Below the pieces are notes generated by a model. It was given only the letters and a program-made list of their open reading frames with translations, was not told the DNA's origin and did no database searches. Position numbers and translations under genes: made by a program. A DNA stretch of 64,000 bases from a virus, in the IMG/VR virus record IMGVR_UViG_3300005529_000024, positions 96,001 through 160,000 of that record, one strand, 5' to 3'. The number at the start of each line of letters is the position of its first letter. The stretch's first letter is position 1. Positions 2,050-47,826 of this stretch are shown here, piece after piece.

Positions 2050-2646
2050 ATGAAGATAAATGAGTATCTCAAAGAAAAGGAAAAAAACTTTGTAAACGTA
2101 TTGCCGAAGACTTTTACTCGTGACTTAGAGGGTAATGATGTTGTGCAGAGTGGATATTTGATTCCTTTCGATGATTATTTTGTCATTGTAAAGCTACCTG
2201 AGTTTGAAACTGATGAATCAATCACAGAGTTTGCTTTCCCCTATAGTAACATCTGTAATCTATCTATTGCTCCCGATTGTCCCTGTCCTAATTGTATACG
2301 CGATGATGCGGAGTTCGAAGAATTCTACTTGACATATAATAAGTCTAGGCGCACATTCAAACAATATTGTGAATCTCTTCAGACTTCTTATGTTGGGTTG
2401 ATGACTACTGATCTTCATGTTAGTACTGAAGGTAAGCCATATGTCTATATTGGTACTCTAATCGTTCATGAAGATTTTGTGGTTTTCAGAAATATCGCTG
2501 GCGAGGAAAAGTTGTATCCATTCGAATCTATTTTGTCGATTACCCCGATTAAATATGATTTAATTCGTGACAGGATTGAGTTTTTTGAGAAGCGATCAGC
2601 TACACAACCCGATATACAATCATATGGAGAGAACAATGCCGATTAA
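2050..2646 (+). CDS. hypothetical protein with two related beta-rich (possibly Sm-like) domains
   Basis: Internal repeat (GYLIPFDDYFVIV / GTLIVHEDFVVF); similar to ORF 27019. Confidence 0.55.
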   Translation: MKINEYLKEKEKNFVNVLPKTFTRDLEGNDVVQSGYLIPFDDYFVIVKLPEFETDESITEFAFPYSNICNLSIAPDCPCPNCIRDDAEFEEFYLTYNKSRRTFKQYCESLQTSYVGLMTTDLHVSTEGKPYVYIGTLIVHEDFVVFRNIAGEEKLYPFESILSITPIKYDLIRDRIEFFEKRSATQPDIQSYGENNAD

Positions 2647-3820
2647 ACAAGAAATCACAAGTGGTAGAGTTCCCGTAAAAATATGGACAGATGCTGTTGA
2701 ATCTGAGGCTTACGGACAGCTTAAGAATGTGGCTAATCTACCGTTCGTCTTCCATCACGTGGCTGTGATGCCAGATTGCCATGTTGGGAAGGGCGCTGTA
2801 GTTGGATCTGTTGTCCCTACGGAAAATGCTATCTGTCCGGCTACTGTTGGTGTCGATATCGGTTGCGGGATGATTGCAGCGAAACTTGTTGGATTGTCAG
2901 CTAAAGATTTCTCTGATGATAAAGTTCTGCGTGAGATTCGTTTAGAGATTGAGAAGAATGTTCCTGTAGGATTTGACCGTCATGATAAGGCGAGCCAAGC
3001 TGCATGGAATTGGGATGGATGGAGAACTTTTTCTACCCTCACTGAAGGTGTTCAAGATCTTAAAGATAAAGCTATGAAGCAGTTAGGGACTCTTGGTGGA
3101 GGAAACCATTTTATTGAACTGTGCCTTGATCGTAATAATGATGCATGGGTTGTTCTCCATTCTGGATCTCGCAATATCGGTAAATCAGTTACTGAGGTGC
3201 ATATCAATAAGGCAAAGGGACTTATACAGGAGTTAGCAATCCATCTTCCTGATAAAGATCTTGCTTATTTTACAAGTGGTACGCCCGAATTTTCTGCCTA
3301 TTTGAACGATCTGTTTTGGGCACAGAATTATGCGCTGATGAACCGTGAGCTTATGCTGAAGAGCGTTTTATCATCGTTGGTTTCTGCGTTGCATCTTCCT
3401 TATCTCTATTTGGAGAACCGCATCAATTGTCACCATAATTATGTGGCTACGGAAGAGCATTTCGGTAAGTCTATCCTAATTACACGCAAAGGAGCTATTC
3501 GGGCTAAAGCTGGAGATCTGGGAGTTATTCCTGGATCGATGGGCACTAAATCTTATATCGTTAAGGGATTAGGTAATCCTGAATCGTTCGATTCTTGTTC
3601 CCATGGTGCTGGTCGTAGGATGAGCCGTGGCGCTGCAAAGAAAGTGTTTACTGTTCAAGACTTGGAAGCACAGACGGCTGGTGTCGAATGCCGAAAGGAT
3701 TCTGGAGTGATCGATGAGATTCCTGGTGCTTACAAGGATATCGATGAGGTCATGACTAATCAAGCTGATCTTGTTGAGGTTTGTTACGAGTTGAAGCAGT
3801 TTCTGTGCGTAAAGGGTTAA
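2636..3820 (+). CDS. rtcB: RtcB family RNA 2',3'-cyclic phosphate/5'-OH ligase
   Basis: MPDCHVG, VGVDIGCG, GTLGGGNHFIE, HSGSR, HHNY, RKGA, PGSMG, SHGAGR, DEIPGAYK; ATG 2636 has GGAG RBS. Confidence 0.96.
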   Translation: MPIKQEITSGRVPVKIWTDAVESEAYGQLKNVANLPFVFHHVAVMPDCHVGKGAVVGSVVPTENAICPATVGVDIGCGMIAAKLVGLSAKDFSDDKVLREIRLEIEKNVPVGFDRHDKASQAAWNWDGWRTFSTLTEGVQDLKDKAMKQLGTLGGGNHFIELCLDRNNDAWVVLHSGSRNIGKSVTEVHINKAKGLIQELAIHLPDKDLAYFTSGTPEFSAYLNDLFWAQNYALMNRELMLKSVLSSLVSALHLPYLYLENRINCHHNYVATEEHFGKSILITRKGAIRAKAGDLGVIPGSMGTKSYIVKGLGNPESFDSCSHGAGRRMSRGAAKKVFTVQDLEAQTAGVECRKDSGVIDEIPGAYKDIDEVMTNQADLVEVCYELKQFLCVKG

Positions 3821-4013
3821 TTGTGCGTTGCGATGGTAGAAATCATAATCTGACTGCCATATACCATGACTCTGTTGGATATGACTGTGTTCATGTTGTG
3901 CGCTGGTGTACTAGATGTGGCGCTGTAGTTATCGATCTTGATACAGATGGTAGGGTTGATCCTGGCGCTATTGCAAAGATGTTATTCCCTTCGGATATTT
4001 ATGGAGGTGAAAA

Positions 4014-18559: not shown

Positions 18560-18651
18560 AGGCCCTTAGTTTAACGGCAAAATCCTGGACTTATAATCCA
18601 GAAGCTCTAGATTGGAGCGCGATACGGGTTCGAATCCCGTAGGGCCTACCA
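18560..18651 (+). tRNA. tRNA-Ile(UAU) with long variable arm, encoded CCA
   Basis: AGGCCCT/AGGGCCT acceptor; CTGGA-CTTATAA-TCCAG anticodon arm (TAT 18592-18594); 22-nt variable region; ACGGG-TTCGAAT-CCCGT; ends ACCA. Confidence 0.9.
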
Positions 18652-35689: not shown

Positions 35690-35714
35690 TGATAAAGATT
35701 TTTTAAAAAAGTAC

Positions 35715-35743
35715 TTGACAAATTTATAAGATCCTGCTATACT
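35715..35743 (+). promoter_or_regulatory. sigma70-type promoter for the Y-RNA-like array
   Basis: TTGACA-N17-TATACT with TG extension, 16 nt upstream of unit 1. Confidence 0.85.
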
Positions 35744-35759
35744 ATAAAAAGTTTAAGAT

Positions 35760-35823
35760 TTGGTGGGTCGGAGTCAATGGGTTATCTTGGATAATACCCC
35801 ATGACGAAAAAATTATCCACCAA
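35760..35823 (+). ncRNA. Y-RNA-like unit 1 (minimal)
   Basis: TTGGTGGGT/ATCCACCAA terminal stem; GGGTCG...TTATCC motif; inner stem then TTATC. Confidence 0.72.
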
Positions 35824-35829
35824 TAGGTT

Positions 35830-35904
35830 AGATGGGTCGCTGTTGATGGGTTATCAAACATATTATATTGATTAATCTCCCATTGACGACAAAATTATCC
35901 ATCT
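35830..35904 (+). ncRNA. Y-RNA-like unit 2
   Basis: AGATGGGT/ATCCATCT; GTTGATGGG/CCCATTGAC; same motifs. Confidence 0.72.
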
Positions 35905-35910
35905 TTAAAT

Positions 35911-36039
35911 ATGTGGGTCGATTTTCAGTTGGTTATCGAATTTGAATCGAGAGACATGGGTTCGAATCCCATACGCTAGTTATGCTGGCGTTAGCTTAGT
36001 GGATAGAGCACTTTCCGACTGATACTAACTTATCCACAT
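35911..36039 (+). ncRNA. yrlA: YrlA-like Y RNA with circularly permuted tRNA module
   Basis: ATGTGGGT/ATCCACAT; TCAGTTGG/CCGACTGA; T-arm, loop-closed acceptor stem, then D-arm. Confidence 0.85.
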
Positions 36040-36053
36040 TTAATTTAACAATT

Positions 36054-36119
36054 TAGCGGGTCGCCATTAGTCGATTATCGCCTGGAAAAATATTTCGATT
36101 AATACATACTAATCCGCTA
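36054..36119 (+). ncRNA. Y-RNA-like unit 4
   Basis: TAGCGGGT/ATCCGCTA; ATTAGTCGA/TCGATTAAT; GGGTCG and TTATC motifs. Confidence 0.7.
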
Positions 36120-36236
36120 TTAAAAATCCCTAAGCTCAGTCGCTAAGCGTCTGAGAGGGTCGCCAAGCGTCCCGTCTTAGGTGAGATCCCGCATCCATGA
36201 TAATATCTGCCCATATTGTCTGGATACCACCTCCTC

Positions 36237-45043: not shown

Positions 45044-45053
45044 GATATTTTAT

Positions 45054-45077
45054 CCTACCATATTGGATTAAGCGTCT
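45054..45077 (+). promoter_or_regulatory. putative phage-specific promoter CCTA-N14-GCGTCT upstream of Ro60
   Basis: Exact intergenic match. Confidence 0.65.
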
Positions 45078-45086
45078 TGCGGGTGA

Positions 45087-45107
45087 AAGTGGGTCAATTA
45101 TCTACTT
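45087..45107 (+). promoter_or_regulatory. mini Y-RNA-like hairpin in the Ro60 leader (putative operator)
   Basis: AAGTGGGTC-AA-TTATCTACTT, next to the AAGGAG RBS. Confidence 0.55.
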
Positions 45108-45125
45108 AATAAAAGGAGAGATCAA

Positions 45126-46712
45126 ATGGCGAAATACACAAAGCATTTCCAAACGAAGCAGACCAAACAAACTGAACCGATTCCCGGTAAGAACCAGGTG
45201 AAAAATAATGCTGGTGGTTATACGTTCAAGATTACCCCAGAGGCGCAGTTTAAGCGATTCTTGATTCTTGGTAGTGATGGTGGTAGTTATTATCAGACCG
45301 AGAATGACTTGACTGTTGAAAATGCTGAGAATGCAGTTGAGTTTATTAAGCAGGATGGCGTTATGGCAGTAAAGCTTATTGCTGAAATCTCAGATCAGGG
45401 TAGAGCAGCTAAGAATTCACCGGCTATCTTTGCTCTGGCTCTTGTTTGTACATTCGGTAGCCCTGAAGCAAAAGCTTGCGCGTATAAGGCGATTCCTGTT
45501 GTGTGCCGTATCGGTACTCATATCTTTGAGTTTTGCCAGTACATTCAAGATCTTCGTGGGTGGAGCCGTGGGCTTAGAAAGGGTGTTGCTTCTTACTTTG
45601 AGAAAAAGGTTGCTGATTCCAATCTGGCGCTTGACGTTATCAAGTATCGTCAGCGTGATGGTTGGACACATAAGGATGTTCTTCGTTTGTCTCATCCTTC
45701 AATCAGCGGTAATGATGTCAACTCGGTTTTAAAGTGGGCTGTTGGTAAAGAGGTTACAGAGAAAAACGCGCTCATCAGTGCATTTGAACAGATTCAGAAG
45801 ACGACCAATGTTAATGAGGCTGTTAAGCTGATTGAGGAGAATAACCTCCCTCGTGAAGCTGTTCCTACGGATCTGCTTAATTCTGCGGATATCTGGAATG
45901 CTTTGCTTGTTAAAATGCCGATGAAAGCCATGATCCGCAATCTTGGAAAAATGACTTCCATTAACCTTCTTAAGTCTAACTTTGGTGAACAGGAGAAGAG
46001 AGTTATTGCTTCTCTTACTAATGTAGAGGCTTTGAGCAAGGCACGTATCCATCCTCTGGATATCCTTGTTGCTCTTAAGATCTACAGTCAGGGTCATAGT
46101 GAAAGAGGATCTCTCTCATGGCGTCCTGTTCCTGGTATTGTTGAAGCTTTGAATGAGGCTTTCTATCTTTCTTTCAAGAATGTAGCTCCACTTGGTAAGA
46201 ACTTCCTTATCGGACTTGATGTCTCTGGGTCTATGTCTAGCCGTATTTCAGACAGCAATTCATTGACTTCACGTGAAGCAACTTCAGCTATTTCTCTGTT
46301 GCTGGCCCGGACTGAGAAGTCGGCAGAGGTGTTTGCTTTCTCTAACTCGTTCATGCCGTTGACTGTTCACAAGAATCTGAGCCTTGAGGGATTGATGCGT
46401 AAGACAGAAAGTCTCCCATTCCAGGGTACTGATTGTGCTCTTCCAATGTTGCATGCTACCCGTAATAAGATTGACAACATTGATTGTTTCATCGTGTTAA
46501 CCGATAGTGAAACGTGGGCTGGAAATATTCATCCTAGCCAAGCTTTACTTGATTATCGGAGACAGTTTAATCCGGAAGCCAAATTGATTGTTTTGGCAAC
46601 TGTTCCTTCTGCTTTCACGATTGCTGATCCGACCGATGCAGGCTATTTGGATATCGCTGGATTCGATTCAAGCGTGTATTCGGTCATGCAAGAATTCCTG
46701 AAAGGATGGTGA
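45126..46712 (+). CDS. rsr: Ro60/TROVE domain ribonucleoprotein (Rsr ortholog)
   Basis: NNAGGY, RFLILGS.GG.YY, GWSRGLR, KYRQR.GWTHKDVLRLSHP, AMIRNLG, RIHP, vWA DVSGSM, GTDCALPM, TDSETW, GFD. Confidence 0.96.
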   Translation: MAKYTKHFQTKQTKQTEPIPGKNQVKNNAGGYTFKITPEAQFKRFLILGSDGGSYYQTENDLTVENAENAVEFIKQDGVMAVKLIAEISDQGRAAKNSPAIFALALVCTFGSPEAKACAYKAIPVVCRIGTHIFEFCQYIQDLRGWSRGLRKGVASYFEKKVADSNLALDVIKYRQRDGWTHKDVLRLSHPSISGNDVNSVLKWAVGKEVTEKNALISAFEQIQKTTNVNEAVKLIEENNLPREAVPTDLLNSADIWNALLVKMPMKAMIRNLGKMTSINLLKSNFGEQEKRVIASLTNVEALSKARIHPLDILVALKIYSQGHSERGSLSWRPVPGIVEALNEAFYLSFKNVAPLGKNFLIGLDVSGSMSSRISDSNSLTSREATSAISLLLARTEKSAEVFAFSNSFMPLTVHKNLSLEGLMRKTESLPFQGTDCALPMLHATRNKIDNIDCFIVLTDSETWAGNIHPSQALLDYRRQFNPEAKLIVLATVPSAFTIADPTDAGYLDIAGFDSSVYSVMQEFLKGW

Positions 46713-46716
46713 TCAT

Positions 46717-47826
46717 ATGAGCACATTAAAAGTAGAGATCTGTAGAATTGATGGTGTGGAAAAGCATCCTAATGCCGATAGGCTGGATATTGTCAAGATT
46801 GCCGGTTGGCAATGTGTCACACAGAAAGATGCTTTTAAGGTAGGGGATTCCTGCGTCTACATACCGATTGACTCGATATTGCCCCTCGAAGTTGAGAGTA
46901 AGATCTTTGGTCCTGATTCTAAGATTAAGCTTGATAAATCTAGGGTCAGATCAATTAAACTTCGTGGTGCCATTTCACAGGGTATGGCTGTAAGACCATC
47001 TACTCTCGGTATTCCTGATGATCAGGATGTTGGTACAGATGTTTCTGAGATTCTTGGCATTAAGAAATATGAACCGCCTACCAGGGAGGTGTCTCATAAC
47101 AGTCAGCTTAATCCTAAACCAAAGCGAAGCTGTAATCCTAATTTCAAGAAGTATACTGGTATCGAGAACTGGAAATGGTATCCAACACTTTTCGATAGCA
47201 CAGAAGAGGTCGTAGTTACAGAGAAGATTCATGGTACAAACTTCCGCTGTGGCTATATTCCTTACTGTGCAAATACTTGGTGGAAGAAGGTTCTGAAGTT
47301 TCTTCACCTTACACCTCAGTATGAGTTTGTGTATGGTAGCCACAATGTTCAGTTGCAGAATAAACTGCGCTATAAAGGCTACTACAGCAATAACGTGTAT
47401 CTTAAAATCGCTAAGCAATATAACCTTGAGTCTGTTCTGAAGAACTTTCCTGGTTTTGTTGTATACGGGGAAATCTACGGTGATAGGATACAGAAGGGAT
47501 ATAATTACGGGTGTGGTACAGGAGAGCATAAGCTCGTTGTTTTTGATGTCATGCACGATGGCAGTTATCTAGACTTTCCTGTCTTTAGTGTTTTTTGTAA
47601 TTTGAGACGGCTACCTATGGCCCCTGTTGTTTATCATGGCCCGTATGATGGCGATAAGATTCTGTCCCTTACCAAAGGCAATTCTGTTCTCTGTCCTGAG
47701 CAGAGGGTTCGTGAGGGAGTCGTTGTGAAACCATTAAAAGAACAGATAACATTTATGGGTAGAAAGATTTTAAAAGTCATCTCTGATGATTATCTGTTGA
47801 ACAACGATAACACTGACTTTCATTAA
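46717..47826 (+). CDS. ATP-dependent RNA ligase (Rnl2/DRB0094-like) with N-terminal OB domain
   Basis: HPNADRL; LRG..SQG; TEKIHGTN; YGEIYG; VFD; REGVVVK; LKVIS..YL. Confidence 0.92.
   Translation: MSTLKVEICRIDGVEKHPNADRLDIVKIAGWQCVTQKDAFKVGDSCVYIPIDSILPLEVESKIFGPDSKIKLDKSRVRSIKLRGAISQGMAVRPSTLGIPDDQDVGTDVSEILGIKKYEPPTREVSHNSQLNPKPKRSCNPNFKKYTGIENWKWYPTLFDSTEEVVVTEKIHGTNFRCGYIPYCANTWWKKVLKFLHLTPQYEFVYGSHNVQLQNKLRYKGYYSNNVYLKIAKQYNLESVLKNFPGFVVYGEIYGDRIQKGYNYGCGTGEHKLVVFDVMHDGSYLDFPVFSVFCNLRRLPMAPVVYHGPYDGDKILSLTKGNSVLCPEQRVREGVVVKPLKEQITFMGRKILKVISDDYLLNNDNTDFH

What the first reader, a model, noticed from the sequence alone, without database searches (positions are those of the whole stretch)
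45054..45128. Miniature Y-RNA motif in the Ro60 leader suggests translational autoregulation
Seen: AAGTGGGTC-AA-TTATCTACTT (45087-45107) forms a hairpin with the same GGGTC/TTATC pairing as the ends of the array units. It lies just after the putative promoter and a few nt before the AAGGAG RBS of the Ro60 gene. Inference: free Ro60 binds its own mRNA to match its level to the Y-RNA pool, as ribosomal proteins do. The motif also links the distant array to this gene independently.
Basis: partly seen in the sequence, partly recalled or inferred. Interest (0 to 1): 0.78.

Follow-up and report, generated by a model that had tools for sequence, protein, structure and literature searches.

The report
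Mini Y-RNA hairpin before phage Ro60
Just ahead of a phage's Ro60 gene sits a 21-base hairpin that copies the Ro60-docking stem of the phage's own Y RNAs; similar copies precede Ro60 genes in unrelated phages and bacteria, so Ro60 probably controls its own production through it.

Summary
Window 45087-45107 folds into an 8-bp hairpin with a 5-nt loop. It reproduces the closing stem of the four Y RNAs at 35759-36121 and ends 5 nt before the Shine-Dalgarno sequence of a genuine Ro60 gene (45126-46712). A pattern built from the array's invariant bases finds only the four Y RNAs and this hairpin in the whole 174-kb genome. The chance of such a match falling in the 82-nt leader is about 4e-4.

No close relative exists, so I examined 243 other rsr loci.
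- In at least 25 of the 83 viral loci (the window included) a full Y RNA ends 6-45 nt before the rsr start, mostly 15-26 nt. That is where this hairpin sits (18 nt).
- Three unrelated loci (L034, L093, L147/L149) carry the same direct miniature next to their Shine-Dalgarno sequence. Each matches its own Y RNAs, including a U:A to C:G switch.
- Other rsr leaders carry rearranged or family-specific versions.

The best reading is a Ro60 operator in the rsr leader that gives negative translational feedback. Binding and repression are untested. The hairpin lacks the G of the CGAA motif, so it is probably a weaker site than a Y RNA. Ro60 autoregulation of this kind appears not to have been described.

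The parts
45051..45084 (+). Phage-specific promoter-like motif directly upstream of the hairpin
   Evidence: Repeat family D2. There are 12 copies in the genome, all on the + strand and each ahead of a gene. Promoter function is inferred.
45087..45094 (+). 5' arm of the miniature Y stem: four variable bases, then GGGU
45095..45099 (+). Five-base loop: the C that is bulged in Y RNAs, followed by AAUU, which repeats the bases preceding the 3' strand of units 1 and 2
45100..45107 (+). 3' arm (AUCU, then four variable bases). The G-U pair at the outer conserved position also occurs in 4 of 28 genuine Y RNAs
45113..45118 (+). Shine-Dalgarno sequence of rsr, 5 nt after the hairpin and 7 nt before the ATG
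45126..46712 (+). rsr, a 528-aa Ro60 orthologue
46717..47826 (+). RNA ligase gene beginning 4 nt after the rsr stop codon, probably in the same transcript
35706..35745 (+). Sigma-70-type promoter of the Y-RNA array
35759..35824 (+). Y RNA unit 1, the primary Ro60 ligand whose stem the hairpin copies
   Evidence: 56.3 bits
35828..35906 (+). Y RNA unit 2
   Evidence: 46.7 bits
35909..36041 (+). Y RNA unit 3, with a tRNA-like module. Its 5' strand shares seven bases exactly with the leader hairpin
   Evidence: 39.8 bits
36052..36121 (+). Y RNA unit 4
   Evidence: 56.6 bits

Best explanation
The hairpin is a cis-acting Ro60 operator. It is a stripped-down copy of the Ro60-docking stem of the phage's Y RNAs, placed 5 nt upstream of the rsr Shine-Dalgarno sequence. 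The Y RNAs are made from their own strong promoter 9 kb upstream and offer the complete, higher-affinity site, so they bind newly made Ro60 first. Once Ro60 exceeds the Y-RNA pool, free protein binds the weaker leader site. The 60-kDa ring then blocks 30S access to the Shine-Dalgarno sequence and start codon, and Ro60 synthesis falls. Shown here: the hairpin and its match to the cognate Y stems, its uniqueness in the genome, its position, and the recurrence of cognate miniatures at the rsr Shine-Dalgarno sequence in unrelated genomes. Inferred: binding by Ro60, competition with Y RNAs, steric repression, and a transcription start upstream of the hairpin.
For: 1. The hairpin keeps the conserved G:C/G:U, G:C, G:U and U:A pairs and the following C of the Y-RNA family. 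Covariation in 28 Y RNAs defines these positions.
2. It is the only miniature in the genome, with P about 3.5e-4 for the leader.
3. It ends 18 nt before the ATG. In other phages full Y RNAs mostly end 15-26 nt before rsr, and 25 of 83 viral loci have one within 45 nt.
4. Direct miniatures occur at the rsr Shine-Dalgarno sequence in L034/G001, L093 and L147/L149. None of these loci shares any gene with this genome except rsr. Each copies its own Y RNAs: the variable pair is U:A in the window and L093 but C:G in G001 and L149, and the loop repeats the bases that precede the cognate 3' strand.
5. The miniature stays with rsr wherever the Y RNAs lie: next to rsr in L093, 9 kb away here, and 12-16 kb away in G001.
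6. A rule fixed before the last 160 loci were fetched finds 3 of 154 rsr leaders against 1 of 817 other gene leaders, p = 0.014. The first set gave 2 of 83 against 0 of 891.
7. In L034 the stem overlaps the Shine-Dalgarno sequence.
8. Other D2-type leaders in this genome have no such hairpin.
9. A minimal stem-bulge-stem RNA binds a phage Ro60 with a KD of 17 nM (PMC12135203, read).
Against: There is no binding or expression data. The hairpin lacks the G after the bulged C and has no inner helix, so it carries only part of the GNCGAA / GGUCCGA motif thought to be contacted by Ro60 (PMC4201824; alignment). It is small and only moderately stable (-6 kcal/mol). Direct miniatures are rare, in about 2% of rsr leaders. 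With the looser a priori pattern the enrichment is modest, P = 0.014, and the 126-fold figure comes from a pattern tuned after the examples had been seen. No close relative exists to show nucleotide-level conservation in this lineage. The transcription start is unknown.
Confidence: 0.5

Rival explanations
1. The hairpin is a Ro60-independent RNA element, either a 5' stabiliser or a processing site. In this reading it protects the 5' end of the rsr mRNA or marks where a host nuclease cuts. It resembles Y stems only because it derives from one or uses the same maturation enzyme.
For: It lies 7 nt after the promoter-like motif, so it may sit at the extreme 5' end of the transcript. In most phages rsr lies directly downstream of Y RNAs on the same strand, so the precursors must be processed at these stems.
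Against: A generic stabiliser would have no need to keep the conserved GGGNC and N'UCC bases, or to follow the cognate Y RNA variant in four unrelated genomes. The other 11 leaders with the same promoter-like motif lack it.
Confidence: 0.2
2. Ro60 does bind the hairpin, but the effect is positive or organisational. Binding could shield the mRNA from exonucleases, or it could load nascent Ro60 near its mRNA.
For: The sequence evidence for Ro60 recognition is the same as for the best explanation. A phage Ro60-Y RNA complex attenuates PNPase activity in vitro (PMC12135203).
Against: A bulky protein 5 nt from, or overlapping, the Shine-Dalgarno sequence is the classical arrangement for repression. 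No known example has this arrangement with a positive effect.
Confidence: 0.12
3. The hairpin is a non-functional relic. A Y RNA once stood directly before rsr, as in many phages, and lost its interior by deletion.
For: A Y RNA ending 15-26 nt before rsr is the commonest arrangement, and the hairpin occupies that place.
Against: In L093 the miniature stands between an intact adjacent Y array and the Shine-Dalgarno sequence, so there it is an extra element and not a leftover. The same architecture, with a 5-6-nt loop, recurs in unrelated genomes and tracks their own Y variants. The stem is fully paired.
Confidence: 0.1
4. The resemblance is due to chance.
For: About 1.5 such miniatures are expected somewhere in a genome of this size. 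Eight loose matches in IMG/VR are unrelated to rsr.
Against: The probability of a hit in this leader is about 3.5e-4, and there are independent replicates in other rsr leaders.
Confidence: 0.03

Closest known systems
Ro60-binding stem of Y RNAs (bacterial/phage YrlA-type RNAs, nematode sbRNAs, vertebrate Y RNAs)
   Same: The closing helix has the same conserved pairs and the same following C as the cognate Y RNAs. Units 1-3 of the array give sub-threshold Rfam hits to sbRNA and YrlA models.
   Different: The hairpin is 21 nt instead of 60-140 nt. It has no inner stem, internal loop or effector-binding module, and it lacks the G of the CGAA motif. The Y-RNA covariance model does not detect it. 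It lies inside an mRNA leader and is not a separate small RNA.
Autogenous translational operators that mimic the protein's main RNA ligand, such as E. coli thrS operator/tRNA-Thr, ribosomal-protein operators (S8, L1, S15, L20) and phage MS2 coat or T4 RegA operators (from established knowledge)
   Same: A small hairpin in the protein's own 5' leader, at or beside the Shine-Dalgarno sequence, copies the binding site of the primary RNA partner in a reduced and probably weaker form.
   Different: No member of this class involves Ro60 or Y RNAs. Binding and repression have not been demonstrated here.
Y RNA genes placed directly upstream of rsr (Thermus phage phiLo Yrl1/Yrl2, PMC12135203; many loci in Chen et al. 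2014, PMC4201824)
   Same: A Ro60-binding stem lies on the same strand just ahead of rsr. I measured the gap to the ATG at mostly 15-26 nt.
   Different: Those are complete Y RNAs. Here the complete Y RNAs are 9 kb away and only the stem remains at rsr.

Membership tests
Y RNA (Ro60 ligand) | Closing helix with conserved G-C, G-C, G-U and N-N' pairs followed by an unpaired C | tested here: met
   The first pair is G-U, as in 4 of 28 genuine members.
Y RNA (Ro60 ligand) | The G (CGAA / GNCGAA motif) after the unpaired C | tested here: not met
   The G is invariant in the 28 seed sequences and kept by nearly all of the 148 model matches. The leader has A at this position.
Y RNA (Ro60 ligand) | Inner stem, internal loop and a total length of 60-140 nt; detected by a Y-RNA covariance model | tested here: not met
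   Model R1 finds only units 1-4 in the window. Rfam finds nothing at the leader at gathering thresholds.
Autoregulatory operator by ligand mimicry | Lies in the regulator's own mRNA leader, at or next to the ribosome-binding site | tested here: met
   5 nt before the Shine-Dalgarno sequence. It overlaps the Shine-Dalgarno sequence in L034.
Autoregulatory operator by ligand mimicry | Resembles the binding site on the primary RNA ligand | tested here: met
Autoregulatory operator by ligand mimicry | Recurs in leaders of orthologous genes | tested here: met
   Found in L034, L093 and L147/L149, but only in about 2% of leaders in this direct form. Other forms are seen.
Autoregulatory operator by ligand mimicry | The protein binds the operator and represses translation | not testable with these tools
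   Needs EMSA, toeprinting and reporter assays.
Intrinsic terminator or attenuator | G+C-rich stem followed by a run of U | tested here: not met
   The tail after the stem is A-rich, and no terminator-like site is reported there.
5'-terminal mRNA stabiliser hairpin | Stem within a few nt of the transcript's 5' end | not testable with these tools
   The transcription start is unknown. The hairpin starts 7 nt after the promoter-like motif.

The most novel reading that the evidence does not exclude
Ro60 synthesis is generally tied to Y-RNA availability by Ro-stem mimics built into rsr leaders. The mimics come in several interchangeable designs: a whole Y RNA abutting the Shine-Dalgarno sequence, direct miniatures as here, rearranged miniatures in which the 3' strand comes first and the CGAA motif runs into the Shine-Dalgarno sequence, and a conserved Verrucomicrobia-type hairpin. 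This would be a widespread autoregulatory circuit of the Ro60/Y RNA system in phages and bacteria that has not been described.
Probability: 0.4. Interest if true: 0.8.

Novelty: new variant of a known kind. Interest (0 to 1): 0.7.

Why it matters
Ro60 and Y RNAs are conserved from bacteria and phages to humans, where Ro60 is a major autoantigen. How cells or viruses balance the protein against its RNA partners is not known. My full-text searches found no report of Ro60 acting on its own mRNA. A leader operator that copies the Y-RNA docking stem would provide a simple feedback mechanism. It would also define a minimal Ro60 recognition element. The comparative data give ready test systems, because the cultured phages Beuffert, Big4, Phosso and FuzzBuster carry related elements at their rsr Shine-Dalgarno sequence. 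The work also suggests that the usual position of Y RNAs directly before rsr may be regulatory and not accidental.

Tried and rejected
- Close relatives. blastn of the region against the phage collection found nothing. The best protein matches were 41% identical in phages, 41-50% in IMG/VR and 54-56% among 5.8 billion proteins. Two of the three best contigs had no DNA available. Nucleotide-level conservation of this leader could therefore not be tested.
- Exact-motif scan of IMG/VR. It gave 8 matches. None is beside an rsr gene and none has complementary flanks, so they are chance hits.
- Whole-leader fold. It is not better than shuffles; only the isolated hairpin stands out.
- Rfam at gathering thresholds found nothing at the leader.
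- Very loose patterns were uninformative: the first scan, a generic 'stem-C-x-UU-stem' with only 2-fold enrichment, and the rearranged form without a Shine-Dalgarno requirement, p = 0.08.
- Candidates dropped after inspection: L038 3811-3837, and L005, L007 and L033. L019 is a weak candidate. L075 may hold a shortened Y RNA, but the fold is ambiguous.
- Terminator or attenuator reading: rejected because there is no U run.
- Shared ancestry of the whole locus with L034 or L093: rejected because no other genes are shared.

Full report

It folds into an 8-bp stem with a 5-nt loop at -6.0 kcal/mol. Only 2 of 200 shuffles fold as well. The whole leader is not unusually structured, z = 0.28. The Shine-Dalgarno sequence AAGGAG is at 45113-45118 and the ATG at 45126. 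The hairpin therefore ends 5 nt before the Shine-Dalgarno sequence and 18 nt before the start codon.

The ORF 45126-46712 is a genuine Ro60. It has TROVE and Ro60 vWA domains. It matches the solved chains 9nen_A (named RNA-binding protein RO60) and 1yvp_A (60-kDa SS-A/Ro ribonucleoprotein) at E about 1e-116, and 2nvo_A (Ro sixty-related protein, RSR) at 2e-106. An RNA ligase gene follows 4 nt after its stop codon. An RtcB ligase gene lies at window 2567-3820.

CONTEXT

The window is part of a 174,395-bp IMG/VR virus record. Four Y RNAs lie at 35759-36121 behind their own sigma-70-type promoter. This is 9 kb upstream of rsr and on the same strand. Unit 3 carries a tRNA-like module. Units 1-3 give sub-threshold Rfam hits to the nematode sbRNA and YrlA models.

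The sequence just before the hairpin belongs to a 12-copy motif. All copies are on the + strand and each stands ahead of a gene. It is probably a phage-specific promoter. None of the other 11 copies is followed by a Y-like hairpin.

IS IT MORE THAN CHANCE?

I turned the array's invariant features into a strict pattern: four flanking pairs, GGGNC, then N'UC(C/U) with N and N' complementary. On both strands of the whole genome this pattern finds the four Y RNAs and exactly one short-gap version, the rsr leader. Markov-shuffled genomes give 1.5 short versions per genome. The expectation for the 82-nt leader on the correct strand is therefore about 3.5e-4.

WHAT THE HAIRPIN KEEPS AND WHAT IT LACKS

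I aligned 28 short Y RNAs from this and other phages. The fold shows strong covariation:
- The outer five pairs vary freely.
- Next come G-C (G-U in 4 of 28), G-C, an invariant G-U, and a U-A or C-G pair that co-varies.
- Then come an invariant C and an invariant G.

The leader keeps all of this up to and including the C. Its G-U variant occurs in genuine members. It has A where the invariant G stands, and it has no inner helix. Its loop repeats the bases that precede the 3' strand in units 1 and 2.

A covariance model built from the alignment finds 136 Y RNAs in 83 sources. All are on the rsr strand. In the window it finds only units 1-4. The hairpin is therefore not a Y RNA. It is a fusion of the two strands of the docking stem.

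The published Ro60 recognition motif is GNCGAA in bacteria and GGUCCGA in vertebrates, and Ro60 contacts mainly the 5' strand (PMC4201824). A minimal stem-bulge-stem RNA binds a phage Ro60 with a KD of 17 nM (PMC12135203). The leader site is thus plausible but probably weaker than a Y RNA, as expected for a feedback operator.

COMPARATIVE TEST

There are no close relatives. I therefore collected:
- 82 viral rsr loci;
- 80 metagenomic loci;
- 80 loci from bacterial genomes;
- six cultured phages.

I then located the start codons.

First result. In at least 25 of the 83 viral loci (the window included) a complete Y RNA ends within 45 nt of the rsr start. The gaps are mostly 15-26 nt. The window's hairpin, at 18 nt, stands exactly where the closing stem of a 'leader Y RNA' stands elsewhere.

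Second result. Three unrelated loci carry the same direct miniature.
- L034 lies in a 171-kb, G+C-rich phage (G001) whose Ro60 is 40% identical. Its miniature is at 3969-3989 and overlaps the Shine-Dalgarno sequence. Its Y RNAs lie 12-16 kb upstream on the same strand. They carry the C:G version of the variable pair, and so does the miniature.
- L093 is the best metagenomic Ro60 match, at 48% identity. Its miniature stands between an intact adjacent Y array and the Shine-Dalgarno sequence.
- L147 and L149 carry a C:G version 17 nt before the ATG. The loop repeats the bases preceding the 3' strand of the local Y RNA.

None of these loci shares any gene with the window's genome except rsr.

STATISTICS AND THEIR LIMITS

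- A gene-leader rule was written after L034 had been seen but before the last 160 loci were fetched. It finds 3 of 154 rsr leaders against 1 of 817 other gene leaders, p = 0.014. In the first set it found 2 of 83 against 0 of 891.
- The original array-derived pattern, with flanks relaxed and the window excluded, gives 4 leader hits against 0.9 expected, P = 0.014.
- A pattern refined after all examples had been seen gives 126-fold enrichment. That figure is post hoc.

The direct form is specific to rsr leaders but rare, at about 2%.

OTHER DESIGNS ON THE SAME THEME

These were noticed in passing.
- Rearranged form. Several leaders carry the 3' strand, a short loop, and then the 5' strand, with the CGAA motif running into the Shine-Dalgarno sequence. 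Examples are L011, L028, L059, L074 and L148, and the cultured phages Beuffert and Big4, with Phosso similar. With a Shine-Dalgarno adjacency requirement this form is found in 7 of 243 rsr leaders against 10 of 1713 others, p = 0.003. Without that requirement p = 0.08.
- Verrucomicrobia-type hairpin. By a narrow pattern, at least 58 of 154 metagenomic and bacterial loci, many of which carry Verrucomicrobia record titles, have a conserved hairpin about 25 nt before the ATG. It lies between the last Y RNA and the Shine-Dalgarno sequence. Its 5' half matches the GNCGAA-type motif. The stem is 96.6% paired, and 4 of 6 pairs show compensatory changes.
- L236 has a 38-nt short Y RNA abutting the Shine-Dalgarno sequence.

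MECHANISM

The most economical reading is negative translational feedback by mimicry. The Y RNAs come from a separate strong promoter and carry the full site, so they capture Ro60 first. Surplus Ro60 then binds the reduced site beside the Shine-Dalgarno sequence and blocks initiation. The sequence facts and the comparative pattern are shown here. Binding, competition, the sign of the effect and the transcription start are inferred.

Rival readings:
- A Ro60-independent stabiliser or processing signal. This is disfavoured because the conserved bases follow the cognate Y variant in four genomes.
- Ro60 binding with a positive effect. This is possible.
- A relic of a deleted leader Y RNA. This is disfavoured by L093, where the miniature coexists with an adjacent array.
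- Chance.

COMPARISON WITH WHAT IS KNOWN

In logic the element resembles the classical operators that mimic a protein's main RNA ligand, such as the thrS operator, ribosomal-protein operators and phage coat-protein or RegA operators (from established knowledge). It fails membership as a Y RNA because it lacks the G of the motif, the inner stem and the required length. I found no paper describing Ro60 control of its own mRNA. I therefore rate it a new variant of a known kind of regulation. It has moderate-to-good comparative support and no experimental support.

Noticed in passing
L004, L006, L008, L014, L017, L022, L030, L031, L044, L055-L057, L065, L069, L080, L081 (ends of the Y RNAs just before rsr): In many phages the last Y RNA ends only 15-26 nt before the rsr start codon on the same strand, so the Ro60-docking stem directly abuts the Shine-Dalgarno sequence. 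In L052 the 3' strand overlaps it.
   Followed up: partly
Alignment A4 (for example L102:2946-2970, L094:1683-1707): Many metagenomic and bacterial rsr loci, a large share with Verrucomicrobia record titles, have a conserved 6-bp hairpin with an 8-nt loop about 25 nt before the rsr ATG. It carries a GNCGAA-like 5' half. The stem is 96.6% paired, and 4 of 6 pairs show compensatory changes.
   Followed up: partly
L254 about 480-525 (Streptomyces phage Beuffert), L258 about 470-522 (Microbacterium phage Big4), L257 about 525-567 (Sinorhizobium phage Phosso): These cultured phages carry a rearranged Ro-stem mimic (3' strand, loop, 5' strand, then the CGAA or CGGA motif) a few bases before the rsr Shine-Dalgarno sequence. 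They would serve as test systems.
   Followed up: partly
window 35759-35905: Y units 1 and 2 score best against the nematode stem-bulge RNA family RF01656 (30.8 bits, below the gathering score). They carry the GGUUAUC upper-stem motif, so they look more like animal Y/sbRNAs than like YrlA.
   Followed up: no
window 7554, 24459, 33232, 45051, 62858, and seven more in the genome: A motif of about 34 nt has 12 copies, all on the + strand and each ahead of a gene. It is probably the promoter of a phage-specific transcription class. The Y array instead uses a sigma-70-type promoter.
   Followed up: partly
window 2567-3820 and 46717-47826: The phage encodes RtcB (E 5e-122) and a second RNA ligase beside Ro60 and the Y RNAs, a full RNA-repair kit. 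RtcB homologues also flank rsr in many of the bacterial loci.
   Followed up: no
L044, L017, L030, L031, L059 (3' ends of the Y RNAs before rsr): Several leader Y RNAs end in their closing stem followed by a run of U, like intrinsic terminators. Read-through into rsr might therefore also be regulated.
   Followed up: no
window 18560-18651: ARAGORN calls a 92-nt tRNA-Ile with anticodon UAU, unusually long for this tRNA type.
   Followed up: no
L039 about 3975-3997: A Y-type 5' strand motif (GGGUCGA) lies between the Shine-Dalgarno-like sequence and the rsr ATG. I did not look for a partner strand.
   Followed up: no
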